Below, in pieces: positions 30,082 to 53,077 of a stretch of DNA of 64,000 nt. The stretch covers positions 30,151 through 94,150 of IMG/VR virus record IMGVR_UViG_3300008954_000023, one strand, 5' to 3'. The DNA comes from a virus. The stretch's first letter is position 1; every line of letters begins with the position of its first letter. The notes beneath the pieces are model-generated. The model was not told the DNA's origin, made no database searches, and was given only the letters and a program-made list of their open reading frames with translations. The position numbers and the translations under genes were made by a program.

Positions 30082-31614
30082 ATGGCCACCCCCCTCCCAG
30101 AGCTGCTGGGAGATGAGCAGGCTCATCCGCTTGCTCTCTTCGCAGGACTCTCACGCCGCTACGGCATGAGCTGGGTGGAGTGGTCTGCCTCTACGCTCCG
30201 CATCTCACTGGAACAGCTGCTTGTAGGGAGTGGGCAGGAGCTCGTAGAGATCAACCTCCATAAGGCCCTTGCCGCCGCCGCCCTCTCGAACTCTGATGGG
30301 TTCTGGAGGGACTGGCCGACGTTCCACTTCCTCTGCAATCCCCTCAACAACAACATCCCGAACCCTTCGGCGCATCAGGATCTGACTGTTGCTCAGATGA
30401 TGGTTGCGGTAGATATCGCCATATCCTTGCGGAAGCTCCTGAAGAAAGTGCACCAAAACCCCTCATTCTCCGAGGAGGTTGCACGGTACGTGGCTGCGCA
30501 GGCACTGACCCAGGGCGTGTGGTACCTTCCGGGTGCGCTTGCCTTCGCAGCTCAGTTCGCAGAAGGACGGAACTACAAGTGCAAGGATTGTGGCAACGAA
30601 GCTGAGATCATCTTCGATGACGCGACCTGTGACGTCTGCACTGAACGGTGGGACGCTACGAGTTTGGGATCGTGGAAGCCGAACCCGGACCTGGTGAAGA
30701 AGTGGGGTAAAAACCTACGATTCTTTTCCAAGAACCCGACGGATCGGGTCGAAGCGCGGCTGGAACAGGTACTCGGCAACCCGACCATCGTGCTTCGTGA
30801 GAGCCAGACAGATCGCTGTGTGGCACACATCCTCGTAGCTCTACAGTATGTCGGGTACCGGCGAGAGCAGTACAAGGTTCAGACTTCGAAGATGCTTCCT
30901 GAGGCTGAGAAGGTGGCCTTCTTCTCTCCTCGTCGGATGGGCCAGCAGGTGAAGTGGATGGGTCAGCAGATGGCCTCTCCCAAGAAGTGGCCTGAGAACA
31001 TCCGCAAGGGCTTCAAGGCGACGACGAATATGGGTGGGGACATCCACACCACTACCTCTGCGGGAGGACGGGAGCGCATCTTCAAAGGCTCCAAGAACGA
31101 TCTCAAAGAGCGGGTACAGGAGCACGCAACGGGAACGGGTGATCGGGACGCGCTCGAGTTCCTTCGGGGGAAGAAGAAGGGCAAGCACAAGTACACCGCC
31201 GACTTCCACACTGGAACCCGTCTACGGGACAAGGCCCGCCGTGCAGGACTCCTCTCCAACGTGGCGAAGTACGAAGGACCAGACAAGGTCCGGAAGACCT
31301 TCAACACTCTCAACCGTGCCCGCCCAGGCACCATGGCCGTAGCGGCCCCTCTTACAGCCGTCAGTGCTCGGGAGAACCTGAAGAAGGAAGACCCCCACAC
31401 CGGAAGGCAGCGGTCTAAGCTCGAGCGGGCAGGGAGAGCTGTAGGCGGGGCTGCTGCAGATGTTGCCGGTATGCGGGTGGGTATGACGGCAGGCATGCTT
31501 GCCTCGATGGCAGGAGAGTCCGCAGGAGGCGCAGCGGGACGAGGTGTTAGCGGTACAGGGAAGGCTGTGAAGTCTGGGGTTGAGAAGTTCAGGGCCCGCA
31601 AGAAGGCTGAGTGA
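30082..31614 (+). CDS. Hypothetical virion protein: globular Zn-ribbon N-domain plus basic Gly/Ala-rich C-domain
   Basis: CKDC/CDVC; abrupt composition change after EKVA. Confidence 0.65.
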   Translation: MATPLPELLGDEQAHPLALFAGLSRRYGMSWVEWSASTLRISLEQLLVGSGQELVEINLHKALAAAALSNSDGFWRDWPTFHFLCNPLNNNIPNPSAHQDLTVAQMMVAVDIAISLRKLLKKVHQNPSFSEEVARYVAAQALTQGVWYLPGALAFAAQFAEGRNYKCKDCGNEAEIIFDDATCDVCTERWDATSLGSWKPNPDLVKKWGKNLRFFSKNPTDRVEARLEQVLGNPTIVLRESQTDRCVAHILVALQYVGYRREQYKVQTSKMLPEAEKVAFFSPRRMGQQVKWMGQQMASPKKWPENIRKGFKATTNMGGDIHTTTSAGGRERIFKGSKNDLKERVQEHATGTGDRDALEFLRGKKKGKHKYTADFHTGTRLRDKARRAGLLSNVAKYEGPDKVRKTFNTLNRARPGTMAVAAPLTAVSARENLKKEDPHTGRQRSKLERAGRAVGGAAADVAGMRVGMTAGMLASMAGESAGGAAGRGVSGTGKAVKSGVEKFRARKKAE

Positions 31615-33665
31615 TGGGTACGCATTTCCTCTCCGGAGCACAGCAGAACCGCTACAACCAGCGGCCCTCAACCAACTTCCTTGGCTCTCGTGGCTTTGGG
31701 ATTCGCTACCCATCCCCCTTCTTCGATGTCGCGCAGCAGTTCCTTCCCGAGAACGTACATCAGCTTCAAATCTGGTGTCGCTTCTACTTCCTGACGAACC
31801 CAGTGGTGAACGTCGGCTGCAGGAAGATGTCGGAGTACTCGGTCACGCCCATCATCTGGCAGACCGAGGATGAGCAGGTCCTCCGGCTCTACAAGGATGT
31901 GGAGCGTAGGCTCCGGTTCCGGCAGTTCCAGGTCGAGACAGGTCTCGACTACAACGTCTACGGCAACTCCTTCACCTCAGTCCTCTTCGGACTGGAGAAG
32001 TACCTGGGCTGCCGCAAGTGCGACATGCAGTTCCGTGCCCGTACCAACCGCAGCCTCTACAAGTGGCGGTCAGGCCGCTTCCATCTTCGTTGTACCAGCT
32101 GCCGGTATGTCGGCCCGGCCAAGCAGCACGATTACTACCCTCGAAGCGTTCGCCGTATCCGAATCGTCAGGTGGAATCCTGAGAACATCGACATCAAGCA
32201 CAACGATGTCACCGGGGCCAACAGGTACTACTACCGCCTGCCTCGTCGTATCCGGAATGACATCAAGCTCGGGGACAGGGAGACCATCGAAACGCTTCCG
32301 GCTCCGTTCCTGGAGGCCGCCCGTCGAGGGAAGGCGCTTCTCTTCAAGGATGGGAGCATCTTCCATCTGAAGCGTCCCACTGTGGCCACCAAGGACATGG
32401 GCTGGGGATCGCCCCTCATTTACCCACTCCTCAAGGATGCGTTCTACCTTCAGGTCCTGAAGAAGGCACAGGAAGCTCTGATGATGGAGCATACGGTGCC
32501 CCTTCGGATGATCTTCCCCGGCCCCTCCACAGGCGGGAACGACAAGCCGTACAGTGCCTACAACCTGGGAGCGTGGAAGTCGAAGATCGATGCCGAGATC
32601 AATGTCTGGCGGCGTGACCCGAACTACATCCCCATCCTGCCGGTCAACATGGGGTACCAGCAGCTTGGCGGCACAGCCAAGGCTCTCATCCTCCATCACG
32701 AGTTCCGCCTCTTCGCCGAGCAGATGCTCAGCGGTATGGGGATCCCGCCAGAGTTCGTCATGGGCGGTCTGCAGTGGTCGGCTTCGAACACAGCTCTGCG
32801 CGGCCTGGAGAACACCTTCCTCGGCTACAACGAGGATCGCTACGGCCTGATGGACTGGGTGGTGGAGAAGCTCTCCTCCCATATGCAGTGGCCCAAGGTG
32901 CCGTTCGCCTTCGGCAAGTTCAAGATGGCCGACGACCTGCAGCGGTCGATGTTCCTCTTCCAGCTCAACCAGGCACAGAAGATCTCCGACCGACGTCTCC
33001 TCGAAGATATCGGGGAAGACTTCGACCTCGAGAACAAGAGGATGGGCGAGGAGCTCAACAAGCAGATCGACACGCAGCGGAAGATGCAGCTCGCGGCCGC
33101 AGACGTGCAGGGCGCAGCACAGCTCCGGACAGGGAGGTACCAGGCCAAGGTCCAGGAGCTCCAGATGGCCGCACAGATGCGTGCCCAGATGGAAGCTCAG
33201 ATGGCACAGCAGCAGGGCGCTGGGGGCGCTCCTGGGCAGGAACAGCAGCCGCAGCAGGGACAAGAGGCCCAACCCCAGCAAGGCCAGGAGCAGGGCCAGG
33301 AGCAGCCTGCTGGAGCCTCCGAAGGCTCTGTGAATGCCGAGAATGCTCAGGCTCCGAACGAGTCGGCCGTGCCTACGGCCATGGCCGGGATGGAGTCTCC
33401 CATCAATGCGGGCCAGCAAGGCGGCTTCGACCTCACCTATGTGGCACAGCGCGCAGCTTCGTACCTGCGGCAGGTGAAGGAAGAGGGCGGGGAGCAGGCG
33501 ATGTATCAGGAGATGCAGCGCATGCAGATGGAAAACCCCAACCTGTATCGCCTCGTTGTTCAGCTCATGAACGATCAAGGCGCGAACACCGATCCCATGA
33601 ACGCGAATCAGATGCCGCAGCCTTCGCAGCGTGCGCAACGGCGTGATCCTGCACGGCAAACTTGA
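31611..33665 (+). CDS. Portal protein (putative) with Zn-ribbon insertion and Gln-rich tail
   Basis: DYNVYGNSF, IFHLK, WGSPLIYP, helical C-half with GIPPEFV; CRKC...CTSC insertion; size and context fit a portal. Confidence 0.7.
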   Translation: MMGTHFLSGAQQNRYNQRPSTNFLGSRGFGIRYPSPFFDVAQQFLPENVHQLQIWCRFYFLTNPVVNVGCRKMSEYSVTPIIWQTEDEQVLRLYKDVERRLRFRQFQVETGLDYNVYGNSFTSVLFGLEKYLGCRKCDMQFRARTNRSLYKWRSGRFHLRCTSCRYVGPAKQHDYYPRSVRRIRIVRWNPENIDIKHNDVTGANRYYYRLPRRIRNDIKLGDRETIETLPAPFLEAARRGKALLFKDGSIFHLKRPTVATKDMGWGSPLIYPLLKDAFYLQVLKKAQEALMMEHTVPLRMIFPGPSTGGNDKPYSAYNLGAWKSKIDAEINVWRRDPNYIPILPVNMGYQQLGGTAKALILHHEFRLFAEQMLSGMGIPPEFVMGGLQWSASNTALRGLENTFLGYNEDRYGLMDWVVEKLSSHMQWPKVPFAFGKFKMADDLQRSMFLFQLNQAQKISDRRLLEDIGEDFDLENKRMGEELNKQIDTQRKMQLAAADVQGAAQLRTGRYQAKVQELQMAAQMRAQMEAQMAQQQGAGGAPGQEQQPQQGQEAQPQQGQEQGQEQPAGASEGSVNAENAQAPNESAVPTAMAGMESPINAGQQGGFDLTYVAQRAASYLRQVKEEGGEQAMYQEMQRMQMENPNLYRLVVQLMNDQGANTDPMNANQMPQPSQRAQRRDPARQT

Positions 33666-35262: not shown

Positions 35263-35466
35263 GCTGTGCCTCCTTCACCGAGGTAGTCACAGGGTTGTCT
35301 GGCACAGTGGGTCCTTCCACCAGATGTAGCATGAGGCGAGAGAAGACCTCTCCCCATGCAGGCGTCAGCATGCCCCTTGCGGGACTCAGTTTACGGCTCA
35401 GAACGTCCTCCTTATGGGTTTGGACCGTTACTGCCCTTATGGCGGAAACCGCGATACCTTAGAGCA

Positions 35467-38400
35467 ATGGCGAAGCTCGACACCCGCGCACTCTTTGAGA
35501 GCATCAAGACCCGGACCACGGCAGAGATCCGTCAGCAGTTCCCCTTCGAAGGCCGTACTCGCCGCCTCGAGCTCGTAGACATCAAGGTCGAAGATCAGGC
35601 CAGGCTCCCAGCAGATCTGCATCACACAGACAACATCGAGGCCCAGGCTCATGCGAAGGCCAAGGGCCGTACCTGGGGCGTTCCTGTCCGGGCCACGCTC
35701 CGGCTCGTAGACAAGTCCACAGGGAAGCCCGTAGATCAACAGTCCTTGGTCATCCTCCGCCTTCCGAAGATCACGAGCCGCTACAGCTACATCATCGCCG
35801 GACAGGAACGGCAGCACGACAGCCTCTTCCGCTCCAAGCCGCGACCGTACCACCGCATCGCCAACAACGGAGACATCCAGGCCCGGTGGAACCTCGCCCG
35901 AGGCCTGGGCTTCGACATCACCTACGAGCCGAAGAAGGGTCGGTTCCTCATGCGCTTCGGGACCTCGAACGTCCCGATGCACCCCATCCTTCAGGCTCTC
36001 GGAGTCTCTGATGCCAAGATGCGGCAGACATGGGGTGAGGCCGTCTTTGCTGCGAACCAACGGGCCGGAAGGAGGGAGCGGGATGTCACCAAGGCGTTCA
36101 CGGCCCTTCGTCTCATGCCTCCAGGACAGAAGCGGGCCACGCATGAGCAGAAGGTGGCCCTTCTGCGGAAGTACTTCACCGAGGAGACGGAGGTGTGGCC
36201 GGATGCCATGAAGTCCGTCTTCGGCAAGGAGTACTCCAACGTCAACGGCGAGAACCTTCTCCTCTCCTCGAAGCGGCTCCTGAAGATTCAGAAGGGCCGC
36301 TCCAAGGACGCGCCGCCGATTGATGAGCGCCCTGATGATCGCCAGTCTCTGTCGACGAAGTACCTCGCGACCACAGAGGACTTCATCATCGAGTCCATCC
36401 GGAAGCAGTCTCGTGACCTGCGGCGAAAGGTGCTCTCGAAGATCGACCGCGAGGACGCCCGCATCTCGGACATCATCTCGGCCAGCCTCTTCAACAAGGT
36501 TGTGCATGGCGTCTTCGACCACGCCCAGCGGCCTGATCAGACCAACCCGCTCCAGTTCCTCTCCGGTCACATGCGGACCACCATTCGAGGTGCGGCCTTC
36601 GGCGGTGTCGGCTCCACGCGCGTGAATCTGGACAAAGACAAGCAGATCAACCCCACCCATCTGGGGTTTCTTGATCCTATCCAGACCCCAGAGTGCTGGC
36701 CGGGGCATGCCGAAGTCTTCACGAAGGAGGGCTGGATCCGCTGGGACCAGACCGCAAACGATACGGAGTTCCTGTGCCGCCAAGAGGGGAAGACCTTCTT
36801 CCAGGCGGCGGTCCGGGTTCACAGGGGCCCCTACTCCGGAGACCTCTACTGCCTCGAGCATGGCAAGATCTCCTATGAGGTGACTCCCAATCACCGGATG
36901 TGGGTTGACACCGTGAGCGGTCCCTCATCTTGGCGATTCTCGACTGCGAGCCGGGTGCACGGCAAAACGCGCCGTTTCGACACAGGACACAGTCCCGCCG
37001 AAGGAGAACTTCGCGAGTTCACTCTCCCTGTTGTGCCGGGGAACAACTCCTCAAAGAATGTTGAAGAGCCCATCGACATCGAAGATTGGGCAGAGTTCAT
37101 GGGCTGGTTCCTGTCCGAAGGTACGGTTCATTACCGAGAAGACAAAAGCCGCTACAACGTACGCATCGCTCAAGTCGCATGGAAGAATCTGGCGGAGTAC
37201 GAAGCGATCGAAGCCCTTCTGGATCGGTTGCCTTTCAACTGGCATTGGGATGGAGAAGGGAAGAGCTTCGGCATCTCGACCAAGCAACTTGCGCACTACC
37301 TCCGGCAGTTCGGAAAAGCTCACGAGAAGTTCATCCCAGACTACTTCTTCGATGCCACTACGGAAGCGCGAGAGGCCTTGTTGGAGGCTCTTCTTCTTGG
37401 AGACGGCCGTATTGGTTCCGTTCGTAAGGACGGCCGCTCTTACGAGCAGCAGGTCTACACGACTACCAGTCCTCAACTGGCCATAGACGTAGAACGTCTG
37501 GCAGTCTCGCTCGGCTACCCGACCAAGATCTCCCGCTATGAGGACAACCGCGAAGATCGGTATCTCGACGTCTATGAGGTACGACTCCTGCAGCATCGCT
37601 ATCGTACGGCCACCCCACGCCACCCCAACTACCCTTCGAGATACCACAGGAAGAAGTACTCAGGGCAAGTCTACTGCGCGACTGTTCCAGGAGGCCTCCT
37701 TTACTGCCGGATGCCCGGAAAGGTAGGATTCTGGTCAGGGAACTCCGATGAAACGGGTATCGCCCTGCATCTCCCTCTCGGAGTCCAGCTCACACCAGCC
37801 AAGCAGCAGAAGGGCAAGTCCCGCGTCTCGCCAGGCCACGAACTGAACACCAAGGTCTACGACCGGAAGAAGAAGGACTGGGTCCTGGCCACCCCTGCCG
37901 ATCTCGAGCGGGAGAACGTCGCATATCCGGACCAGGTGAAGTGGACGAACGGCCGCCCCACACCAGTCTCCCGGGATGTGGTCTGCTACGACTCGGAGCG
38001 GGGTACGTCTTCTCGCCCCTGGGCACAGGTCCGTTACATCCTCCCTTCCTCGAAGGCTCTGCTCTCTTTTTCTGCGAACCTCATCCCGTTCCTGGGTAGC
38101 AACTCCGGGAACAGGACCATGACCGGCTCCAAGATGCAGGAGCAGGCAGTCGCACTCAAAGATCGAGAGGCCCCGCTTGTTCAGACGAAGACCGATGGCA
38201 AGATGACTTTCGAGTCAGCCCTCGGTACGACCTCCTCTCATCGGTCTCCGGTGGCAGGAACGATCACACGGGTGACGAAGGATGCTATCTTTATCCGTCC
38301 ATCCTCAGGAGGAAAGGCAGTAAAAGTACCCATCTACAACCACTTCCCTCTCAACGGGAAGAAGGGGATGATTCACGCAGAGCCTGTGGTGAAGAAGGGC

Positions 38401-41400
38401 CAGAAGGTGAAGGAGGGAGATCTCCTCGCAGATACGTCGTTTACGAAGGGCGGCACCCTGGCCATGGGGAAAAACCTCCGGACGGCCTACATCCCATGGA
38501 AGGGGCTGACATTCGAGGACTCAGTGGTCATTTCTGAGTCGGCATCGAAGAAGCTCACATCCTCACATTTGCATAAGGAGTCGGTGACGTTCTATACCGG
38601 CATGCTTGGTGGGAAGCCGGGCTCCAAGGCAAAGTGGGTGGACTACGCTTTGCCGGAGCGTACGACTGCTGACAAGCTCGCGAAGCTCGATGATGCGGGC
38701 ATCGTAAATGTCGGCACGAAGGTGGTGGACGGTGACGTCCTCATCGCCGTCTTGTCGCCTTCGCAGCAGACCAAAGAGGATGCGATTCTCAAGAGCATCC
38801 ATCGGTCTCTGGTTCGCGACTACCGCGACCGCTCCGTTGTCTGGCACCATGACTATCCAGGCACGGTGGTCAAGGTCACTCGTGCCGGGAAGAAGGTCAC
38901 TGTCCATGTGAAGACCGAAGAGCCTATGACCATCGGCGACAAGCTCGCAGGTCGCTACGGGAACAAGGGTGTGGTCGGGCGCGTGGTTCCAGACAAGGAG
39001 ATGCCACGAACGAAGGATGGCAAGCCGCTGGACGTTTTGTTCAATCCTGCCACAGTCGTCTCTCGGATGAACCTTGGTCAGGTGTTGGAGACTGCTGCAA
39101 GCAAGATCGCGCGGAAGACTGGCAAGCCTTTCGTGGTCGAGAACTTCGCAGCGGGTGTGGACCATACTCAGCAGGTCAAGGATGCTCTGAAGAAGCACGG
39201 CCTCTCAGACACCGAAGAGGTCATCGATCCTGCGACAGGGAAGCCCATCGGGCAAGTACTGACGGGTGAGCAGTACATCATGAAGCTCCACCACATGGTG
39301 GATAAAGCCATGACTGCGCGTTCTTACGGGACTTACACCTCCTCCGGCGCAGCCCCTGCAGGCTCTGGCATTCCTGGTGGTGGCCAGAAGATGGATGCCT
39401 TGGCGACCTATGCCCTCCTCGCACACGGAGCGAAGCACAACCTCCGAGACGCTCAGACCATCAAGTCCGATGGTGACCAGGAAGAGGTGTGGGATGCCGT
39501 GATGCTCGGCCGTCCATTGCCTCCGCCGAAGCCGACGCGAGGCATGACCAACATGCTCTCGTACATGCGGGCGATGGGTATCGATACCGAGAAGAAGGGC
39601 AACAACTACGTCATCTCCCCGCTCACGGATAAGCAGGCTCTCGCCATCTCCAATGGCGAGATCAAGATGCCCCACAAGGCGCTGTACGCGAAGGGCGCAC
39701 GCACTCTCGAAGAGGCACGCGGTCTCTTTGATCCACGAGTCACGGGCGGAATGGATGGCCCTTACTGGGGACACATCAAGCTGCAAGAGCGCATGCCGAA
39801 CCCGATGTTCCAGGGAGCTATCCAATCCCTGCTTGGCATCACGGACAGGCAGTACAAAGAGCTCGTAGGTCCGAAGCTCCAGAAGGACGGCTCCTCTGGT
39901 TTCGACGTCATCAACCAGCGGCTCGGGGCCATCAACGTAGACCGCGAGCTGGCAGCTACTCAGGCTCAGCTCCCGAAGCTCACGGAGTCCAAGCTCAACA
40001 AGGCTCGGAAGAAGGTCAAGTACCTTCAAGCCTTGAAGAAGCTGAAGGTCTCTCCGGTGGATGCGTACACCAGCAAGGTTGTACCTGTCATTCCGCCGAC
40101 GATGAGGAAGATCTCCATCGGTCTGGATGGGAAGCAGATCCTCGATGACCTCAACGGCCTGTACCTCTCAGTCGGCCAGGCCAATGCCGCGTTGAAGAAC
40201 GCAGACCCTTCGACTCCGAGGTCAGAGCTTCAGAAGTCAAAGGCCCACCTGTACCAGGCCACCGCGGGGCTGCGGATGACGGGTACTTCCATCGGCGGCC
40301 GCCACCACCGCGGACTGATGGAGAGGCTCATCGGCAAGGTGCAGGGCGTAGGCCAGCCGAAGCACTCCCTGTTCCAGTCGGGAGTCCTCGGTAGGCGACA
40401 GGATCTCTCCGGCCGCTCGGTCATCATCCCTGAGCCAGACATGGGCCTCGACGAGGTCGGTATTCCCATCCCCATGGCGATGGAGATGTATCGCCCCTTC
40501 GTCGTCCGAGAGCTCGTACGGGAGGGAACGGCCCCTCTTGATGCCGACAAGCTCATCGACAAGAACGATCCTCGGACCCTTCACGCCTTGAAGCGTGCAG
40601 TGGCAGATCGTCCCGTACTGATGAAGCGTGACCCTGCCCTGCACAAGTTCTCTGTCATGGGGTTCAAGCCGAAGCTCGTGAGCGGGAAGTCCATCCAGAT
40701 CCATCCGCTCGTCACGGGCGGCTTCAACGCGGACTTCGACGGCGACAAGATGGGCCTCTTCGTACCGGCCTCTGAAGAGGCAAAGGACGAGGCCCAGAAG
40801 CTCCTGCCCTCGAAGAACCTGTTCAGCCCGACCCACTTCGGACTGATGCCGACCCCCTCACAGGACTCCCTCCACGGGATCTACCTGTCCACGAAGTGGG
40901 GCCGTCCTGTCACAGTACCGAAGGGAACCACCCGGCAGCAGGCCGTTACCATGCTGCGGAAGGGCGAGCTCAAGCCCTCGGACGTCATCACCATCGACGG
41001 CAAGAAGACCACGCCTGGCCGTCTTGAGCTTGCTTCCAGACTCCCGCCCGCCATGCGAGATGATGCGCGGCTCTTGTACGACAAGAACTTCAAGCTCGAC
41101 AAGAAAGGGATGAAGGCATTCCTCACGGATGTGGCTCGGAAGCATCCGAAGCAGTTCGGCGTGGCCGTCAATGCCTGGAAGGACCAGGGGAATCGGGTCT
41201 CCTTCACTGCCGGAGCTTCGTTCTCCCTCAACGACTTCCACGATGGGAAGAGGGCCCGGGATCGCATCCTCGCCAAGTACAAGCGCAAGGAGGCAGAGAT
41301 CCGGTCCTCCCGGAAGTCTCGTCGTCAGAAGGACAAGGCCATCGTCGCGCTCTATGCCAAGGCTCAGGCGGAACTCAAGGCTGCTGGCATGGAGATGTAC

Positions 41401-44004
41401 GGCAAGAGCAAGAACCGTGTCTACGAGTGGGCACAGTCCGGCGGCCGTGGTGGTTGGAACCAGTTTGGCCAGATGGTCTTCGGCCCGATGCTCGTCACCG
41501 ATCCGGAGAAGCGTCCAGTCCCTGTCCCGCTCACGAAGTCTTACGGCGAGGGTCTTCCCATCTCGCAGTACATGGCCGCGATGCACGGAGCCCGAAAGGG
41601 AACCCTGGACCGCGCAGCAGGTACGCGAGACCCTGGTGCCCTGACTAAGGACATCATCAACACCGTCATCGACTACAAGGTCTCGGCCGAGGACTGCGGC
41701 TCTACGCGTGGCACGAAGATGCCAACCGCGAGCGTGGACACGGCGGACAGGTACCTCATCACCCCGGTCAAGTTGAAGGATGGCACGACCATTCAGGCAG
41801 GCACGCTTCTGACCTCGCCACTCCTGACCCGGATGCGGAACTCTGGAGTCAAGGAGGCACACGTCCGTTCACCCTTGCACTGCAAGATGTCGAAGGGGAT
41901 CTGCCAGCACTGCCTCGGCCTCTCCGAGCGAGGGAAGCATCACGATGTAGGTACCAACGTGGGGGTCATCTCTGGCCACGCGCTGGGAGAACCGGTCACA
42001 CAGCTCACCATGCGGTGCAACGCTGCAGGGAACTTGGTCCGTATACGCGCCGGGGAGGACATCTTTACCTGCTCTCTGGAGCAGCTCTGGCAGTCCATTC
42101 CCGGTACGGTTCGCGTGGATGACGACCCCGGACATACGCGAATCGAGACGAAGGCAACGCCAGGTTTGGAGGTATGGGACCAGACCGGGTGGACGAGGAT
42201 TCGTACGATCCAGAGACATCAGCAGGATGACGAGATGTACATCTCTCGTACATCATCGGGACGTGCCTTCGTATCGCAGGGGAACCATCCGAACTGGGCC
42301 CGCCAGAACGCTCCTGCGTGTACCTCTTGCGGGTGTGAAGAGCCTCACAAGTTCAACAGCCGGCACCAGCGCAGAGGCGAGGACATGGTCACGCTCCGAT
42401 GCGTGGAGTGCGACCATCGTTTCACGGTCCGGAAGGGTGAGTACGAGCGGGGCCAGGAGCGGGTGGTCTACACAGAGAATCTCCAGGGCCTGCTGATCGG
42501 AGTCTCGGAGGCGCCCAAAGACACCGTGCCTTTCGAGCTTCCGATGCCTCCGTACCTGATGGGTATGTGGCTCGCAGAAGGGTGCTTCCGCCATGAGAAG
42601 AACAAGACTCTCCGACTGGAAGAGGGAACGCAGCGACGGGTCAAGCGTAGTCACACGAACTACCGGAAGCTCCACTCACTGATCATTACTCAGAAGCCTG
42701 GAGTGATTCACGACCAGATCCTCCAGGAGCTCGATGAAGCGGGCATCTCGTACCATGTCTCTGGCAAGAACATCATCTTTGGAGATGTAGAGCTTTGCCA
42801 GCGACTATGGGGCTGCGGAAGCAAGGCATCTGAGAAGCAGCTTCCTCCCGGATTCCTTGCGATGTCGAAGGAATCCATCATGGAGTTTTTGGCGGGATAC
42901 TACGACGGAGACGGTACTTGCGACCCAGGTGAGACACGCTTCTCTTTCGACACTACGAGCTGGACTCTCGCGTCTCAGGTTGCAGAGCTTGTACGCGCGA
43001 TAGACGGAGTGGCGAGTCTCTACAAAACCCCGTGGAGAGGTACCTCTCAGAACCAAGGCTACCGCGTCAATGCAGCCCTCTATGAGCCTTTGCCGTCTGT
43101 GAAGGGCCACCCGCTTCGGACAAGCCTCAACTCTGAGTTCGACGATTACGAACAGGTATCTGCCGTGCAAGAGGTTGAATACGGAGGGGGCTTCGTGTAC
43201 GACATCGCTACAGAGACGAGGGCTTTCTCGTCGAACGGGGTTCGCACTCACAACACCTTCCATACCGGTGGATCGGTCGGCAACGATGGTGTCGTGGATG
43301 CCTTCCAGCGGGTGAAGCAGCTCTTCTTTGTTCCGAAGAGGCTTCCAGGATCTGCGGCCTTGGCGACGGTCTCCGGCCAGGTGTCCCTGGTCCGACAGAA
43401 TCCTCTCGGAGGCTACGACGTTGTCATCGAAGGGAAGACGCACCGTGTCATCGAAGGGAAGGTGCTGCCGAGCATCCGAAAGGGTGTGCATGTCAAGAAG
43501 GGTGATCCACTCTCCTCCGGCTCCATCAATCCGCATGAGCTCCTGCAGCAGACCAGGAGCATGGGGCGGGTTCGTGACTACCTGACTACTGAGGTTTCCA
43601 AGGCGTATGGCGGGTCCGTACGTCGTCGGCATGTGGAGACGGTGGTGAGGGCCATGACGAACCTCACCATGGTCAACTCTGCTCCACCAGACTCCGGCCT
43701 GATGCGCGGCCAGCTCACGCCCTTGTCACGCGTGAAGGCGTACAACGAGGAGGCCAAGGCCGAGGGGAAGCCGACCATCCTTCATACGCCTCAGCTCCGT
43801 CCCATGACGGAGATGCCATTGGCAGGTAAGGAAGACTGGATGGCGCGGTTGAACTACCGTCGCCTGAAGGAGACGTACCAGGAAGGTGCAGCACAGGGCT
43901 GGGCCTCGGACATTCACGGAGATCATCCGATTCCTGGTCTGGCTCATGGTGCGGAGTTCGGGCTGAAGCCCTATGAGCCTCCGAAGGTTCCCGGGAGACG
44001 GTGA
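35467..44004 (+). CDS. rpoBC: Single-polypeptide DNA-directed RNA polymerase (beta-beta' fusion) with two inteins
   Basis: Beta motifs: HLGFLDPIQTPE, NRTMTGSKMQEQA, FEDS, GDKLAGRYGNKGVV, SRMNLGQ, KLHH, GGQK. Beta' motifs: WGHIKL, LGRRQDLSGRSVI, KRDPALH, FNADFDGD, HGARKG, GEPVTQLTMR|TFHTGG, RHVET. Confidence 0.96.
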   Translation: MAKLDTRALFESIKTRTTAEIRQQFPFEGRTRRLELVDIKVEDQARLPADLHHTDNIEAQAHAKAKGRTWGVPVRATLRLVDKSTGKPVDQQSLVILRLPKITSRYSYIIAGQERQHDSLFRSKPRPYHRIANNGDIQARWNLARGLGFDITYEPKKGRFLMRFGTSNVPMHPILQALGVSDAKMRQTWGEAVFAANQRAGRRERDVTKAFTALRLMPPGQKRATHEQKVALLRKYFTEETEVWPDAMKSVFGKEYSNVNGENLLLSSKRLLKIQKGRSKDAPPIDERPDDRQSLSTKYLATTEDFIIESIRKQSRDLRRKVLSKIDREDARISDIISASLFNKVVHGVFDHAQRPDQTNPLQFLSGHMRTTIRGAAFGGVGSTRVNLDKDKQINPTHLGFLDPIQTPECWPGHAEVFTKEGWIRWDQTANDTEFLCRQEGKTFFQAAVRVHRGPYSGDLYCLEHGKISYEVTPNHRMWVDTVSGPSSWRFSTASRVHGKTRRFDTGHSPAEGELREFTLPVVPGNNSSKNVEEPIDIEDWAEFMGWFLSEGTVHYREDKSRYNVRIAQVAWKNLAEYEAIEALLDRLPFNWHWDGEGKSFGISTKQLAHYLRQFGKAHEKFIPDYFFDATTEAREALLEALLLGDGRIGSVRKDGRSYEQQVYTTTSPQLAIDVERLAVSLGYPTKISRYEDNREDRYLDVYEVRLLQHRYRTATPRHPNYPSRYHRKKYSGQVYCATVPGGLLYCRMPGKVGFWSGNSDETGIALHLPLGVQLTPAKQQKGKSRVSPGHELNTKVYDRKKKDWVLATPADLERENVAYPDQVKWTNGRPTPVSRDVVCYDSERGTSSRPWAQVRYILPSSKALLSFSANLIPFLGSNSGNRTMTGSKMQEQAVALKDREAPLVQTKTDGKMTFESALGTTSSHRSPVAGTITRVTKDAIFIRPSSGGKAVKVPIYNHFPLNGKKGMIHAEPVVKKGQKVKEGDLLADTSFTKGGTLAMGKNLRTAYIPWKGLTFEDSVVISESASKKLTSSHLHKESVTFYTGMLGGKPGSKAKWVDYALPERTTADKLAKLDDAGIVNVGTKVVDGDVLIAVLSPSQQTKEDAILKSIHRSLVRDYRDRSVVWHHDYPGTVVKVTRAGKKVTVHVKTEEPMTIGDKLAGRYGNKGVVGRVVPDKEMPRTKDGKPLDVLFNPATVVSRMNLGQVLETAASKIARKTGKPFVVENFAAGVDHTQQVKDALKKHGLSDTEEVIDPATGKPIGQVLTGEQYIMKLHHMVDKAMTARSYGTYTSSGAAPAGSGIPGGGQKMDALATYALLAHGAKHNLRDAQTIKSDGDQEEVWDAVMLGRPLPPPKPTRGMTNMLSYMRAMGIDTEKKGNNYVISPLTDKQALAISNGEIKMPHKALYAKGARTLEEARGLFDPRVTGGMDGPYWGHIKLQERMPNPMFQGAIQSLLGITDRQYKELVGPKLQKDGSSGFDVINQRLGAINVDRELAATQAQLPKLTESKLNKARKKVKYLQALKKLKVSPVDAYTSKVVPVIPPTMRKISIGLDGKQILDDLNGLYLSVGQANAALKNADPSTPRSELQKSKAHLYQATAGLRMTGTSIGGRHHRGLMERLIGKVQGVGQPKHSLFQSGVLGRRQDLSGRSVIIPEPDMGLDEVGIPIPMAMEMYRPFVVRELVREGTAPLDADKLIDKNDPRTLHALKRAVADRPVLMKRDPALHKFSVMGFKPKLVSGKSIQIHPLVTGGFNADFDGDKMGLFVPASEEAKDEAQKLLPSKNLFSPTHFGLMPTPSQDSLHGIYLSTKWGRPVTVPKGTTRQQAVTMLRKGELKPSDVITIDGKKTTPGRLELASRLPPAMRDDARLLYDKNFKLDKKGMKAFLTDVARKHPKQFGVAVNAWKDQGNRVSFTAGASFSLNDFHDGKRARDRILAKYKRKEAEIRSSRKSRRQKDKAIVALYAKAQAELKAAGMEMYGKSKNRVYEWAQSGGRGGWNQFGQMVFGPMLVTDPEKRPVPVPLTKSYGEGLPISQYMAAMHGARKGTLDRAAGTRDPGALTKDIINTVIDYKVSAEDCGSTRGTKMPTASVDTADRYLITPVKLKDGTTIQAGTLLTSPLLTRMRNSGVKEAHVRSPLHCKMSKGICQHCLGLSERGKHHDVGTNVGVISGHALGEPVTQLTMRCNAAGNLVRIRAGEDIFTCSLEQLWQSIPGTVRVDDDPGHTRIETKATPGLEVWDQTGWTRIRTIQRHQQDDEMYISRTSSGRAFVSQGNHPNWARQNAPACTSCGCEEPHKFNSRHQRRGEDMVTLRCVECDHRFTVRKGEYERGQERVVYTENLQGLLIGVSEAPKDTVPFELPMPPYLMGMWLAEGCFRHEKNKTLRLEEGTQRRVKRSHTNYRKLHSLIITQKPGVIHDQILQELDEAGISYHVSGKNIIFGDVELCQRLWGCGSKASEKQLPPGFLAMSKESIMEFLAGYYDGDGTCDPGETRFSFDTTSWTLASQVAELVRAIDGVASLYKTPWRGTSQNQGYRVNAALYEPLPSVKGHPLRTSLNSEFDDYEQVSAVQEVEYGGGFVYDIATETRAFSSNGVRTHNTFHTGGSVGNDGVVDAFQRVKQLFFVPKRLPGSAALATVSGQVSLVRQNPLGGYDVVIEGKTHRVIEGKVLPSIRKGVHVKKGDPLSSGSINPHELLQQTRSMGRVRDYLTTEVSKAYGGSVRRRHVETVVRAMTNLTMVNSAPPDSGLMRGQLTPLSRVKAYNEEAKAEGKPTILHTPQLRPMTEMPLAGKEDWMARLNYRRLKETYQEGAAQGWASDIHGDHPIPGLAHGAEFGLKPYEPPKVPGRR
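36694..37743 (+). mobile_element. Intein 1 (350 aa, LAGLIDADG) in the RNAP beta TPE motif
   Basis: TPE|CWPG...VTPNH...FMGWFLSEG...LLLGDG...VYCATV...WSGN|S. Confidence 0.9.
42016..43254 (+). mobile_element. Intein 2 (413 aa, LAGLIDADG) in the RNAP beta' trigger loop
   Basis: LTMR|CNAAG...MGMWLAEG...FLAGYYDGDG...VYDI...RTHN|TFH. Confidence 0.92.
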
Positions 44005-44843
44005 TGTTGAAGCAGGGCAGGCATTTCACAGCCGAAGAGTTCGACCAGATGGTTGGAAGTCTTCGTGATCTTCGGAAGAAGCGGCAGGCGAAGGCCCACA
44101 GGCAGGTGCAGAAGTACGAGGCGAAGTCTACGGCCCGACGCGCGGGCGGCGTAGATGCTGCCACCGCAGAGAAGATGGATCGTGCACAAGCGCGATTGCG
44201 CGGCCGTGCGGAGTTTGTGAGTGGAGTGGGCAAAGAGCAACAAGCCCCGGCCAATATCCCCGAGCAATACCGTGAACAGGCCAAGAAGGACATCGCCAAG
44301 CAAACAAGACAGGGGTACAGGGGTCTGCTCGGGCGTGGCAAGGATTCCCCTCTGGTACGTCGCCATATCCCCGAAAACCCGGCCGCAGTCAAAGCTCGGA
44401 AGGCTGAGGAGCTTCGCGGGAAGCTAAAGACTCACTTCGCAGATCAGCATGCTGCTGAAGCGAAGGCCCAGCAGGACTTCGTCGACAAGGCCAAAGCCCG
44501 TCAGGTTGGTGGTACCCAATCCGCAGCTTCTGCGTCGAAGCCTCCTACGGTATCGGCCCCTACGCCGAAGCCTGAGACTCCCACGCCGAAGCCCGACGCT
44601 TCCACCACTTCTGGAGGGGGTAGCTCTACTTCGACTCCAGATGCTGCCAAGCCCAAGCCTCCTCCGAAGACCCCGTCGAAGGGCCTGCTCGGAGGTATGA
44701 AGCCCGGGACGAAGCGCGGTCTTCTGATTGGAGGCGGCGTGGCGACAGGTCTGGCAGGTCTGGCGGCCATCCGTTCTGCCACAGCACCAAAGACTCCGCC
44801 GCCTCCGAAGATGGCAGGTTTGGCGGCACTGATCTGGAAGTAG
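44001..44843 (+). CDS. Basic, Pro-rich protein with C-terminal Gly/Ala hydrophobic helix (putative internal virion protein)
   Basis: Coupled to the RNAP stop; GLLIGGGVATGLAGLAAI; terminal KMAG. Confidence 0.55.
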   Translation: MMLKQGRHFTAEEFDQMVGSLRDLRKKRQAKAHRQVQKYEAKSTARRAGGVDAATAEKMDRAQARLRGRAEFVSGVGKEQQAPANIPEQYREQAKKDIAKQTRQGYRGLLGRGKDSPLVRRHIPENPAAVKARKAEELRGKLKTHFADQHAAEAKAQQDFVDKAKARQVGGTQSAASASKPPTVSAPTPKPETPTPKPDASTTSGGGSSTSTPDAAKPKPPPKTPSKGLLGGMKPGTKRGLLIGGGVATGLAGLAAIRSATAPKTPPPPKMAGLAALIWK

Positions 44844-44846
44844 GCC

Positions 44847-46130
44847 ATGCGTCGTCGGTTCCCGCCTCATCGTGGTCGAGGACGAGGCGGCTACGCGGAC
44901 GTCCGCATCCTTGCTGCGCGCATCCTCGCAGTGAACCCGATGCTCTGGACGTGCCACCTCCGTACAGAGATCGGCGAACGGGACTTCCCTGACGTTCCTC
45001 TGGGCTCTCCCTACCTCCATCCTGCAGATGGGGAAGGCTTCCTCATCATGCCGGAGCCCGGAGCTGCGGTGTGGATGGCAGAGCCCTCGGAAGGCAACAC
45101 CAGGCCATTCATCGTGGCCTTCCGTTCCTACTTCAGCAAAGAGCCTGGTTCCGAGTCGAACCCGACACAGCTCAATGCCCGGATGAACCGTCCCAGGTTC
45201 AATCTTGGTGACATGGGCATCATTGGAAGGAACCGTAACGGCATCAAGGTTCGACGCGGCGGCGTCACGGAGGTTCTGGCCTCTCCTCTCTCTCGAAGGA
45301 TCTACTCAGCCCGTGGCCACATCATCCACGACATCTGTCAGAACTGGAAGCTGGACACTCTCGGCGGCTCCATACGATGGCTCGTGGCCCGAGAGGAGAA
45401 GGATCCTGAAGGGAAGCAGGGCACCCTCTTTGACCTGAAGGCCAAGGAGTACGCGAACCATAAGGGCCATGTCGTCCGTGCACGTCTTGGCGGACAGATC
45501 GTTGTCGGCTCCGAAGGTGATGCTGACGGAGGTGCCGGAGAGGCGGGTCCGGCTCCGGCTTCTTCAGAGCTCGTAGACACCCCTGTTCTCTACCTCCAGT
45601 TCTACGAGGACGGTGACAAGGCTGAGGATGATCTCTCACCGTCTGGTGCAGTGCTGGCAGACAAGGACGGGAACATTGAGCTGGCCTTCAAGGGGAAAGT
45701 CCGCATCGAGGTTCGCGGTGCGACAAATGCCACGCTTGAGCTCTCTCCCGGAGCTGTGAAGGTCGAGGCAGATGCGCAGGTCGACGTTGAGGCCCCGACC
45801 ATCAACTCGACTGCGACCGTCAAGGCGACAACGACTGCACCGGTCATTGAGGCCACAGCAGCTACGTCTGCCACTATCGCTGCTCCCACGGTTTCTCTTG
45901 TTGCTGGATCCTCTGCTATGACAGTGACAGAGGCCGGAGTGGCTGTCGGAGAGGGAAACGGCGGAGGGGCTCTGGTGGACAATGGCTATAGCCAGATGCT
46001 CTCCGCAGCTCTGGGAGAGATCGTCTTGATCGGCACGGCTGCAGGGCAGTCCACTACCGCCATCCAGGCTCTGATCTCTGCTGTGAATGCGGGGACGTTC
46101 ACGAGCTCGAAGTTCAAGACAGATATGTGA
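44847..46130 (+). CDS. Baseplate hub/spike (gp5/gpV-like) protein
   Basis: N-terminal OB-like 'MPEPGAAVWM'; C-terminal A/T/V-rich beta-helix repeats (V.VEAP.I...AT). Confidence 0.6.
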   Translation: MRRRFPPHRGRGRGGYADVRILAARILAVNPMLWTCHLRTEIGERDFPDVPLGSPYLHPADGEGFLIMPEPGAAVWMAEPSEGNTRPFIVAFRSYFSKEPGSESNPTQLNARMNRPRFNLGDMGIIGRNRNGIKVRRGGVTEVLASPLSRRIYSARGHIIHDICQNWKLDTLGGSIRWLVAREEKDPEGKQGTLFDLKAKEYANHKGHVVRARLGGQIVVGSEGDADGGAGEAGPAPASSELVDTPVLYLQFYEDGDKAEDDLSPSGAVLADKDGNIELAFKGKVRIEVRGATNATLELSPGAVKVEADAQVDVEAPTINSTATVKATTTAPVIEATAATSATIAAPTVSLVAGSSAMTVTEAGVAVGEGNGGGALVDNGYSQMLSAALGEIVLIGTAAGQSTTAIQALISAVNAGTFTSSKFKTDM

Positions 46131-46198: not shown

Positions 46199-46819
46199 AT
46201 GTCCATCGCCACGCATGAGCCTCTCTTCCTCCGCGAGTACACCGTCCATGACCTGTTCGAAGGGGAGAAGCGGGCCTCACTCGTCAAGATGCCCGACGAT
46301 GAGAAGAAGTGGCCGCCGTTCATCCTCTCCTCCCTTCAGCGGGAGTTCCCCTTCCTCGCTGAGTACGACCTCGAGATCGTCCTCGACCGTGTGGAGCCAG
46401 AGGCAGGGGCTGCTCTCGGCTACGTCCAGGTTCGGAACCGCACCCGTGCGCGGCCGCAGGACGTGGGAGCTTTCGGCAACATCATCCGTATCCCCATCAT
46501 CATCCAGGACCGGCGGCTTCAGAAGTTTCTGGTCTTCGAGACGGGAGGCCAGACCTACCCCATGACTGAGGAGCGGGTGAAGCAGGCAATGATCGATCCA
46601 GGCATCTTCGACACCACCGTCGGCAAGACCCCAGGCTCCCCAAGCATCGTCGACCAGCTCTTCCCGCCGTACCAGCAGCGGCAGGGCTTCGGCCGGGTGG
46701 TGGAGCCTGCAGCAGGAGGGATCTCGAAGGTCTCCGCGGCGCCTCTGGAGGACGGCGGCCACACGACGAAGACGGCCTCCTCCTCGATTCGTGCGCGTTT
46801 GCGGCTGGTCGCTCGTTGA
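46199..46819 (+). CDS. Hypothetical virion protein
   Basis: AGGAG RBS; EKRAS, KTAS; high GC3. Confidence 0.65.
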   Translation: MSIATHEPLFLREYTVHDLFEGEKRASLVKMPDDEKKWPPFILSSLQREFPFLAEYDLEIVLDRVEPEAGAALGYVQVRNRTRARPQDVGAFGNIIRIPIIIQDRRLQKFLVFETGGQTYPMTEERVKQAMIDPGIFDTTVGKTPGSPSIVDQLFPPYQQRQGFGRVVEPAAGGISKVSAAPLEDGGHTTKTASSSIRARLRLVAR

Positions 46820-53033: not shown

Positions 53034-53077
53034 GGATTAGGTGTTTACCGGGCTATTCTCCTTATGGCAGGGAAAGG

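What the first reader, a model, noticed from the sequence alone, without database searches (positions are those of the whole stretch)
35467..44004. Fused, reduced beta-beta' RNA polymerase encoded among virion genes
Seen: one ORF carries the beta motifs then the beta' motifs (junction near 39600; NADFDGD at 40726). After removing the inteins it is about 2080 aa, versus about 2750 aa for E. coli beta plus beta'. The beta' N-terminal Zn-binding domain is deleted (GLFDPRVTGGMDGPYWGHIKL, no Cys), while the second Zn site (EDCG...HC...ICQHC) is kept. Beta GGQRFGEME appears as GGQKMDALA. No alpha, omega or sigma gene was recognised in the window. Motifs look closer to cellular enzymes than the split phiKZ-type or highly diverged crAss-type RNAPs. 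Inference: a possibly alpha/sigma-independent enzyme, perhaps virion-packaged given its position between the portal and spike genes.
Basis: partly seen in the sequence, partly recalled or inferred. Interest (0 to 1): 0.8.

Follow-up and report, generated by a model that had tools for sequence, protein, structure and literature searches.

The report
Single-chain phage RNA polymerase with inteins
An uncultured large phage encodes both catalytic subunits of a bacterial-type RNA polymerase as one protein interrupted by two self-splicing inteins; it belongs to a widespread, barely described phage family that carries its own sigma factor and probably ships the enzyme inside the virus particle.

Summary
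Window 35467-44004 (+) is one open frame of 2,845 aa. It reads beta, then beta-prime, with two LAGLIDADG inteins (aa 447-796 and 2221-2633 of P0001). The spliced product is 2,082 aa. The junction (~39,590-39,650), NADFDGD (40726), the missing beta-prime N-terminal zinc ribbon and the retained second zinc site are all confirmed.

It is not a one-off:
- 18 of 18 IMG/VR relatives have one continuous frame.
- At least 463 protein clusters (50% identity) match across the same junction.
- Gene order is conserved: portal, RNAP, then a probable central spike.
- In a beta-prime tree the family sits outside 19 bacteria from 10 or more phyla, as sister to Salmonella phage Arash and Vibrio phage D69.

Published virion mass spectrometry of Arash found its RNAP to be the most abundant particle protein.

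The "sigma-independent" inference is not supported. The contig encodes a sigma70-family protein about 16 kb upstream of the window. It is conserved in 5 of 5 complete relatives and is predicted to dock on the clamp helices (ipSAE 0.68, best control 0.00). No alpha gene occurs in any complete relative, so independence from alpha stays open.

This scan has already found the same family on other DNA. I rate it a new variant of a known but uncharacterised kind.

The parts
35467..44004 (+). Precursor ORF of the single-chain beta/beta-prime RNA polymerase: 2,845 aa from M38 of P0001, 2,082 aa after splicing
35467..36693 (+). Extein 1: the N-terminal part of beta, up to GFLDPIQTPE
36694..37743 (+). 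Intein 1 (350 aa; Cys1, block B TPNH, LAGLIDADG motifs, ends GN with +1 Ser). It is inserted in the beta motif IQTPE|SDETG.
   Evidence: It is 70% identical to inteins at the same site in P0006, P0007 and P0032.
37744..42015 (+). Extein 2: the rest of beta (FEDSVV, GDKLAGRYGNKG), the fusion junction, and beta-prime up to the trigger loop
39577..39672 (+). Beta/beta-prime junction. The beta C-terminal homology ends at GIDTEKK. A 17-aa linker follows, then the beta-prime N-terminal homology starts at SNGEIKMP.
   Evidence: A junction-spanning query finds 463 clusters at E<=1e-10.
39721..39783 (+). Site of the deleted beta-prime N-terminal zinc ribbon (GLFDPRVTGGMDGPYWGHIKL, no Cys)
   Evidence: The deletion is shared by the family, Arash and Vibrio phage D69.
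40135..40260 (+). Beta-prime clamp helices (aa 1594-1635), the predicted docking site of the phage sigma-like factor
40726..40746 (+). Catalytic NADFDGD motif
41689..41913 (+). Retained second zinc site (C2114, C2176, C2183, C2186)
42016..43254 (+). Intein 2 (413 aa; Cys1, two LAGLIDADG motifs, a CxxC...CxxC insert, ends HN with +1 Thr). It splits the trigger loop at QLTMR|TFHTGG.
43255..44004 (+). Extein 3: the beta-prime C-terminal part
31611..33665 (+). Portal protein gene, upstream neighbour conserved across the family
   Evidence: 30-32% identical to the Arash gp204 portal and its D69 homologue, E 1e-85. It lies upstream of the RNAP in every related locus that reaches that far.
44847..46130 (+). 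Conserved gene that directly follows the RNAP in relatives; a probable baseplate central spike
   Evidence: The profile gives only weak hits (E 0.07-0.4), nearly all to the T4 gp5 beta-helix or VgrG. The AF2 model was poor.

Best explanation
The ORF encodes the catalytic core of a bacterial-type multisubunit RNA polymerase as one polypeptide: beta joined through a 17-aa linker to beta-prime.

Two LAGLIDADG inteins must splice out before the enzyme can work, because they interrupt a conserved beta active-site-proximal motif (TPE|S) and the trigger loop.

The mature 2,082-aa core pairs with a phage-encoded sigma70-family factor. That gene lies on the same contig, outside the window. The factor is predicted to dock on the retained beta-prime clamp helices and to give promoter specificity.

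The phage encodes no alpha. The covalent beta/beta-prime link may take over part of alpha's assembly role.

The gene sits in a conserved portal, RNAP, spike block and is the only RNAP gene in complete relatives. The enzyme is therefore probably packaged in the capsid, ejected with the DNA for early transcription, and also made anew later.

Shown here: the architecture, the inteins, family membership, synteny, the presence of sigma and the absence of alpha genes.

Inferred: activity, sigma pairing, independence from alpha and virion packaging.
For: Architecture and catalytic motifs:
- Pfam beta and beta-prime domains lie in order in one frame.
- NADFDGD, GDKLAGRYGNKG, FEDS, the bridge helix GARKG and the trigger loop MR|TFH are intact.

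The fusion is a family trait:
- 18 of 18 IMG/VR relatives have one frame of 2,068-2,829 aa.
- More than 120 clusters (90% identity) are 42-67% identical.
- 463 representative clusters at E<=1e-10 match across the junction, and 105 of the top 150 are at least 1,950 aa.

Phage origin, not cellular:
- The record is an IMG/VR virus contig with portal, TerL and Arash-like structural genes.
- In the beta-prime tree the bacteria form one side (SH-aLRT 99) and the family plus Arash/D69 form a clade (99).
- The best 80 matches in GTDB genomes are ordinary rpoC at 28-32% identity.

Inteins:
- Both have canonical ends and LAGLIDADG motifs.
- Homologous inteins sit at the same sites in relatives, and some relatives carry mini-inteins.

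Sigma:
- The contig protein P0122 is a homologue of Arash gp10 (E 5e-14).
- Its family profile hits PDB sigma factors (E 4e-9).
- Its AF2 model (pLDDT 85.5) matches sigmaS, sigmaA and sigma32 (probability 1.0).
- One copy is present in 5 of 5 complete relatives.
- Predicted complex with RNAP aa 1413-1890: ipSAE 0.68, best of 3 controls 0.00. The mark was reached by 58 of 80 solved complexes and 2 of 110 mismatched pairs. The runs share at least 63% of contacts, and the partner pLDDT is at least 73. The interface is RNAP 1594-1635 (clamp helices) against sigma 50-103. Sigma on clamp helices is a textbook pair, so this pass may reflect likeness to solved holoenzymes.

No alpha and a single RNAP:
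- 0 of 5 complete relatives match PF01000 or PF01193, while 14 of 14 control genomes do.
- Each complete relative has one RNAP gene.

Packaging:
- In Arash virion mass spectrometry gp206 has the most spectra (3,516) and gp216 has 1,210.
- Sigma gp10 is also present in those particles (PMC10585845).
Against: - No experiment exists on this phage or on any fully fused member.
- The Arash preparation listed 116 proteins, including ribonucleotide reductases. The authors themselves allow carry-over of abundant intracellular proteins.
- Arash is only about 30% identical to this enzyme.
- Intein 1 ends in GN rather than HN, and no TxxH block was found in intein 2. Splicing competence is assumed, not shown.
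- The sigma residues that contact the clamp helices in E. coli (R275, E295) are not conserved, so the docking prediction rests on fold likeness.
- The contig is about 50% complete.
- Host alpha and omega could still be recruited.
Confidence: 0.7

Rival explanations
1. The enzyme is an ordinary non-virion phage RNAP, made after infection for middle and late genes. Its position next to the portal is only a matter of gene order, and its detection in Arash particles is carry-over.
For: The Arash virion list has 116 proteins, including ribonucleotide reductases and ligases, and the authors raise contamination themselves. No N-terminal targeting or cleavage tag is evident on the RNAP. The sigma gene and the RNAP gene sit in operons that look late and structural.
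Against: gp206 is the single most abundant protein by spectra in Arash particles, ahead of the capsid protein. Each complete genome has only one RNAP gene. If the phage does not use the host RNAP, something must transcribe its early genes. The portal, RNAP, spike order is conserved in all related loci that extend far enough.
Confidence: 0.22
2. The single chain is not self-sufficient. It assembles with the host alpha dimer, and perhaps omega, as bacterial core does. The fusion is neutral, as in Helicobacter.
For: Cellular rpoBC fusions (the Helicobacter locus L098 has one 2,908-codon frame) still use alpha. The beta and beta-prime conserved regions are bacterial-like at about 30% identity.
Against: No alpha or alpha-like gene is found in five complete relatives. 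A packaged enzyme would have to carry host alpha or find it after ejection. phiKZ nvRNAP shows that phage multisubunit RNAPs can work without alpha and omega (PMC8287921).
Confidence: 0.3
3. The phage sigma-like factor redirects the host RNAP, like T4 gp55 or SPO1 gp28, and the phage RNAP initiates without sigma.
For: Many phages encode sigma factors for the host core. The E. coli sigma-contact residues on the clamp helices are changed. The beta-prime zinc ribbon is lost and the flap tip is shortened.
Against: The sigma-like gene co-occurs with this RNAP in 5 of 5 complete genomes and is found in Arash virions together with the RNAP. The clamp-helix coiled coil is retained. The predicted docking reaches the mark: ipSAE 0.68 against a best control of 0.00. 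That mark was reached by 58 of 80 solved complexes and 2 of 110 mismatched pairs.
Confidence: 0.15
4. It is a cellular rpoBC gene from a bacterial contig, or a recent host capture.
For: About 30% identity to bacterial beta-prime, and strong scores for the Pfam cellular models.
Against: The record is an IMG/VR virus record with portal, terminase and Arash-like virion genes. The protein lies outside a clade of 19 bacteria. No family member appeared among the matches in GTDB genomes.
Confidence: 0.01

Closest known systems
RNA polymerase of Salmonella phage Arash (gp206 + gp216, OQ632216; PMC10585845) and of Vibrio phages D69, D148 and D181
   Same: It has a homologous beta/beta-prime junction fusion and lacks the beta-prime zinc ribbon. 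The portal lies immediately upstream. A homologous sigma70-like gene sits among the structural genes. There is no alpha gene and only one RNAP per genome. It is the sister clade in the tree.
   Different: Arash and D69 are split again inside beta-prime, at about P0001 aa 1886-1889, into a 1,525-aa and a 606-aa protein. Up to 4.7 kb of other genes lies between the two. Here the whole enzyme is one chain and carries two inteins. Identity is only about 24-34%. The paper calls gp206 simply 'beta subunit'.
mReC, the multimeric-RNAP-encoding Caudovirales (Weinheimer & Aylward 2020, PMC7481178)
   Same: These are uncultured large tailed phages from metagenomes and IMG/VR. They carry beta and beta-prime that cellular HMMs can recognise and that branch outside cellular clades.
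   Different: The parts of Supplementary Data 2 that I read list separate beta (about 1,000-1,400 aa) and beta-prime (about 900-1,300 aa) genes. The word 'fused' is used only for crAssphage. The MCP and TerL Pfam families reported for mReC (PF07068, PF03237) are not detected on this contig. Whether the two groups are sisters was not tested.
phiKZ / AR9 jumbo-phage multisubunit RNAPs
   Same: They are phage-encoded two-barrel RNAPs without alpha or omega, and one set is virion-packaged (PMC7598289, PMC8287921).
   Different: Their beta and beta-prime are each split into two or more proteins. Each genome has two paralogous sets. They have no sigma70-family factor; gp68 and gp226 take that place. 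They are much more diverged. Here there is one gene, one set and a recognisable sigma.
Cellular rpoBC fusions (Helicobacter, Wolbachia)
   Same: They show the same beta to beta-prime order in one polypeptide (L098, 2,908 codons).
   Different: They are cellular and about 2,900 aa long. They keep the N-terminal beta-prime region. They nest within Campylobacterota in the tree, so the fusion arose independently.
crAss-like phage gp66 and YonO single-chain two-barrel RNAPs; the P23-45 tape-measure-fused virion RNAP (PMC10770324)
   Same: They are single-polypeptide RNAPs, and in some cases virion-delivered.
   Different: They are so diverged that cellular HMMs fail, and they do not depend on sigma70. 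The present enzyme scores E 1e-64 against Pfam Rpb2_6.

Membership tests
Bacterial-type multisubunit RNAP catalytic core (beta/beta-prime) | Beta double-psi barrel with catalytic lysines (GDKxxxRxGNKG) and the ED motif | tested here: met
   GDKLAGRYGNKG at aa 1194-1205 and FEDSVV at 1053-1058. Pfam Rpb2_6 scores E 1.7e-64.
Bacterial-type multisubunit RNAP catalytic core (beta/beta-prime) | Beta-prime NADFDGD Mg-binding loop, bridge helix and trigger loop | tested here: met
   NADFDGD at aa 1791. GARKG bridge helix at 2078. The trigger loop QLTMR|TFHTGG is restored once intein 2 is removed.
Bacterial-type multisubunit RNAP catalytic core (beta/beta-prime) | Beta-prime N-terminal zinc-binding domain (four Cys) | tested here: not met
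   Deleted in the window, the family, Arash and D69.
Bacterial-type multisubunit RNAP catalytic core (beta/beta-prime) | Assembly with an alpha dimer and omega | not testable with these tools
   No alpha gene is found on the contig or in five complete relatives. Use of host alpha is unknown.
Bacterial-type multisubunit RNAP catalytic core (beta/beta-prime) | Initiation through a sigma70-family factor bound to the clamp helices | tested here: inconclusive
   A sigma70-family gene is present. Predicted docking scores ipSAE 0.68 against a best control of 0.00; the mark was reached by 58 of 80 solved complexes and 2 of 110 mismatched pairs. This is a model, and it may reflect likeness to solved holoenzymes.
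Arash-type portal-adjacent phage RNAP | Homologous beta/beta-prime junction fusion without the zinc ribbon | tested here: met
Arash-type portal-adjacent phage RNAP | Portal gene immediately upstream | tested here: met
Arash-type portal-adjacent phage RNAP | Second split inside beta-prime (beta+beta-prime-N and beta-prime-C as two genes) | tested here: not met
   The frame is continuous through aa 1885-1889 (TTPGR), here and in 18 of 18 IMG/VR relatives.
Arash-type portal-adjacent phage RNAP | Presence in purified virions | not testable with these tools
   Shown only for Arash (PMC10585845).
mReC (Weinheimer & Aylward 2020) | Separate beta and beta-prime genes; MCP in PF07068; TerL in PF03237 | tested here: not met
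   The gene here is fused. There is no PF07068 or PF03237 match on the contig, which is about 50% complete.
phiKZ/AR9-type jumbo-phage RNAP | Beta and beta-prime each split; two sets (virion and non-virion); no sigma70-family factor | tested here: not met
   One gene and one set per complete genome, with a sigma70-like factor present.
LAGLIDADG inteins | N-terminal Cys; C-terminal Asn followed by Ser, Thr or Cys; endonuclease motifs; insertion at a conserved site | tested here: met
   Both inteins meet these features. Pfam LAGLIDADG_3 matches. Homologous inteins sit at the same sites in relatives. Two departures: intein 1 has Gly, not His, in the penultimate position, and no TxxH block was found in intein 2.

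The most novel reading that the evidence does not exclude
The family is a self-sufficient two-component bacterial-type transcription machine. One spliced polypeptide plus one small sigma would need no alpha or omega, because the covalent beta/beta-prime link replaces the alpha assembly platform. The enzyme would be delivered ready-made by the virion, making the phage independent of host RNAP from the first minute.
Probability: 0.3. Interest if true: 0.75.

Novelty: new variant of a known kind. Interest (0 to 1): 0.55.

Why it matters
- **A minimal bacterial-type RNAP.** If the spliced single chain plus its sigma is active without alpha and omega, it would be the simplest known sigma-dependent bacterial-type RNAP. 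It would give a direct test of what the alpha dimer is needed for, and a compact two-gene transcription module for cell-free or synthetic systems.
- **A new kind of virion RNAP.** Packaging would add a third type of virion RNAP beside the N4 and phiKZ types, in a phage lineage that is abundant in metagenomes (at least 463 clusters at 50% identity).
- **An intein record.** Inteins sit in at least eight conserved sites across the family, which makes it a rich natural record of intein homing into an essential enzyme.

Tried and rejected
- **Nucleotide search of phage genomes:** megablast of 20 kb found nothing.
- **Neighbour annotation:** Pfam and PHROGs gave no hits for most neighbours.
- **Downstream genes versus Arash:** hhalign of genes G, H, J and K against Arash gp217-gp222 gave only weak colinear hints (J to gp218, probability 11%; K to gp219, probability 17%). 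I claim no orthology.
- **Fold of gene G:** the AF2 model was too poor to search with (pLDDT 46). The 'spike' label rests on weak profile hits only.
- **Site-heterogeneous tree:** the LG+C20 run did not finish in two attempts. A 'careful' LG+G4 run also did not finish. Only quick LG+G4 trees with SH-aLRT support are reported, and they have no archaeal or eukaryotic outgroup.
- **Genome scan with a five-sequence alignment:** The three-sequence alignment worked.
- **Rifampicin prediction:** Q513, D516 and R529 are kept, while S531T, L533R and I572A differ. The H526 position is ambiguous in the alignment, so I make no call.
- **mReC membership:** rejected as stated above. The relationship between the two groups was left untested.
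- **Literature:** searches for a description of the fully fused form found none. The library is incomplete.
Full report
**1. Observation**

A single + strand frame runs from 35356 to 44004. The 111 nt before ATG 35467 have non-coding composition (GC3 0.49, against 0.72-0.80 in the exteins). All relatives begin at the equivalent of M38.

Pfam finds RNA_pol_Rpb2_6 (aa 968-1328, E 1.7e-64), then Rpb1_2 (E 3.6e-31), Rpb1_5 (E 6.8e-16) and LAGLIDADG_3. Every motif coordinate quoted in the finding was reproduced.

Two inteins are delimited precisely:
- Intein 1: aa 447-796 (nt 36694-37743), C...GN|S, inside the beta motif IQTPE|SDETG.
- Intein 2: aa 2221-2633 (nt 42016-43254), C...HN|T, inside the trigger loop QLTMR|TFHTGG.

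The spliced product from M38 is 2,082 aa. Salmonella beta plus beta-prime is 2,749 aa.

**2. Anatomy against a bacterial enzyme**

BLASTP of the spliced protein against Salmonella RpoB and RpoC aligns the following, in spliced numbering:

| Spliced residues | Salmonella residues |
|---|---|
| 62-193 | beta 84-228 |
| 335-791 | beta 491-938 |
| 792-1025 | beta 1048-1338 |
| 1124-1839 | beta-prime 177-939 |
| 1840-2055 | beta-prime 1128-1346 |

Much of the 'reduction' is the absence of the E. coli lineage-specific insertions SI1, SI2 and SI3.

Genuine losses are the beta-prime N-terminal zinc ribbon, part of the region that follows it, and a shortened flap tip.

At the junction the beta C-terminal homology ends at GIDTEKK (aa 1408-1414). 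The beta-prime homology resumes at SNGEIKMP (aa 1432). A 17-aa linker replaces the first 30 or so beta-prime residues.

The catalytic elements are intact:
- GDKLAGRYGNKG
- FEDS
- NADFDGD
- the bridge helix
- the trigger-loop residues M, R and H
- the second zinc site

The four cysteines of that second zinc site are at least 90% conserved in a 32-member alignment.

The clamp-helix coiled coil is kept at full length. However, the E. coli residues that contact sigma70 (R275, E295) are replaced.

**3. It is a family trait, not a curiosity**

- A search of 5.8 billion proteins returned more than 120 clusters of 2,040-2,120 aa (longer where inteins are present). They are 42-67% identical over the inter-intein region and come from contigs of up to about 200 kb.
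- All 18 IMG/VR loci recovered have one continuous RNAP frame of 2,068-2,829 aa.
- A 141-aa query spanning the junction (window 39373-39795) found 747 representative clusters (50% identity) at E<=1e-3 and 463 at E<=1e-10.
- All top 150 of those match in one stretch across the junction.
- Of those 150, 105 are at least 1,950 aa.

Large insertions occur at eight or more sites in the family: P0001 positions 446, 1068, 1197, 1235, 1370, 1797 (directly after NADFDGD), 2220 and 2636.

The two inteins here are 70% and 59% identical to inteins at the same sites in relatives. Some relatives carry mini-inteins. This is the usual picture of intein homing and decay.

**4. Context**

The window is part of a 94,150-bp IMG/VR virus record that CheckV estimates as about 50% complete.

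Window 31611-33665 is a homologue of the Arash portal gp204 (30% identity, E 1e-85).

Gene order is conserved in all related loci that extend far enough: A, B, portal, a variable stretch, RNAP, then G, H, J and K. G normally starts within about 100 nt of the RNAP stop codon. Its profile gives only weak hits (E 0.07-0.4), but 12 of 15 are to the T4 gp5 beta-helix or to VgrG spikes. 'Between portal and spike' is therefore plausible but not proven.

TerL (53012-56161) and the homologue of Arash gp222 (60482-63622) also carry inteins.

Upstream of the window, several contig genes are homologous to and colinear with Arash gp6, gp8, gp10, gp13 and gp14. Apart from gp10 these are annotated as virion structural proteins, or as the cell-wall hydrolase/structural protein gp8.

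**5. Relatives and phylogeny**

The closest cultured relatives are Salmonella phage Arash and Vibrio phages D69, D148 and D181.

In Arash, gp206 (1,525 aa) is itself beta fused to the N-terminal part of beta-prime. gp216 (606 aa) is the rest. The break falls at about P0001 aa 1886-1889, which is not at either intein site.

In a beta-prime tree (LG+G4, quick search, SH-aLRT), 19 bacteria from at least 10 phyla form one side (support 99). The fully fused family plus Arash/D69 form a clade (99), with Arash/D69 as sister to the fused group. The topology is the same when the longest branches are removed.

Helicobacter, whose rpoBC is also fused, groups with Campylobacter inside the bacteria. That fusion is therefore independent.

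A scan of GTDB species genomes returned only ordinary rpoC at 28-32% identity.

Limits of this analysis: no archaeal or eukaryotic outgroup, and the site-heterogeneous and careful runs did not finish.

**6. Sigma, alpha and copy number**

The window has no sigma gene. The contig does, at G000:C1:14095-14919 (274 aa, P0122).
- It is 29% identical to Arash gp10 (E 5e-14).
- It has 18 metagenomic homologues, most carrying Sigma70_r3.
- The family profile hits PDB sigma factors (best E 4e-9; 58 of the 60 chains listed are sigma factors).
- The AF2 model (pLDDT 85.5) aligns over its whole length with sigmaS, sigmaA, sigma32 and sigmaB (Foldseek probability 1.0).

Each of three complete or near-complete family genomes (177-202 kb), plus Arash and D69, shows:
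- exactly one such sigma-like gene;
- one RNAP gene;
- no match to the alpha families PF01000 or PF01193, which were found in 14 of 14 control genomes.

A complex prediction of the sigma-like protein with RNAP aa 1413-1890 gave ipSAE 0.68, against 0.00 for the best of three controls. That mark was reached by 58 of 80 solved complexes and 2 of 110 mismatched pairs. The runs share at least 63% of contacts, and the partner pLDDT is at least 73. The interface is RNAP 1594-1635 (the clamp helices) against sigma residues 50-103.

Sigma2 on the clamp helices is a textbook interface. The pass therefore shows likeness to solved holoenzymes. It does not show that this pair binds.

**7. Virion packaging**

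The Arash paper reports gp206 as the protein with the most spectra in purified particles (3,516). gp216 had 1,210 and sigma gp10 had 467. The authors caution that abundant intracellular enzymes may be carried over (PMC10585845).

Packaging here is an inference. It rests on that homologue, on the conserved position of the gene in the head/tail block, and on there being a single RNAP per genome.

**8. Comparison with the literature**

- **mReC** (PMC7481178): the parts of Supplementary Data 2 that I read list separate beta and beta-prime genes only. The paper mentions fusion only for crAssphage. The MCP and TerL Pfam families it reports are absent from this contig.
- **phiKZ/AR9 enzymes:** they are split into four or five proteins, come in two sets and lack a sigma70-family factor. 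They do show that phage multisubunit RNAPs can dispense with alpha and omega (PMC8287921).

I found no paper that describes the fully fused, sigma-associated, portal-adjacent form.

Other agents of this scan have reported the same family several times on other DNA, with the same reading.

**9. Verdict**

Independence from sigma is contradicted. Independence from alpha is open.

I class it as a new variant (all-in-one chain with two inteins) of a known but uncharacterised kind, the Arash-type phage RNAP.

Noticed in passing
window 53012-56161 (+): The large terminase is 1,049 aa because it carries an intein with a LAGLIDADG endonuclease (Intein_splicing at aa 179-559). The terminase homology to Arash gp1 and phrog_675 lies in aa 560-1021.
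   Followed up: partly
window 60482-63622 (+): A homologue of the Arash structural protein gp222 is interrupted by a Hint/LAGLIDADG intein of about 400 aa (aa ~193-595).
   Followed up: partly
G000:C1:14095-14919 (16 kb upstream of the window start): A sigma70-family factor gene is embedded among homologues of Arash virion proteins. It is conserved as a single copy in all complete relatives examined.
   Followed up: yes
window 46816-47706 (+): A 296-aa protein carries a polyvalent-protein-type inorganic pyrophosphatase (InPase, PF18823, E 9e-39). It lies three genes downstream of the RNAP and is absent from most related loci at this position.
   Followed up: no
L011, L012 and L017 (portal genes of relatives): In three relatives the portal homology is broken by insertions of about 1.3 kb, which suggests inteins in the portal gene as well.
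   Followed up: no
window 44001-44843 (+): A 280-codon frame overlaps the RNAP stop codon (GTGATG). It has weak coding statistics and no homologue in any related locus. It sits where relatives go straight from the RNAP to gene G.
   Followed up: partly
window 51319-51969 (-): An RNase HII gene (PF01351, E 2e-28) lies on the opposite strand, between the head/tail block and the terminase.
   Followed up: no
window 42016-43254, inside intein 2: Intein 2 carries a CxxC...CxxC zinc-ribbon-like insert (CTSCGC...CVECDH) ahead of its LAGLIDADG core.
   Followed up: no
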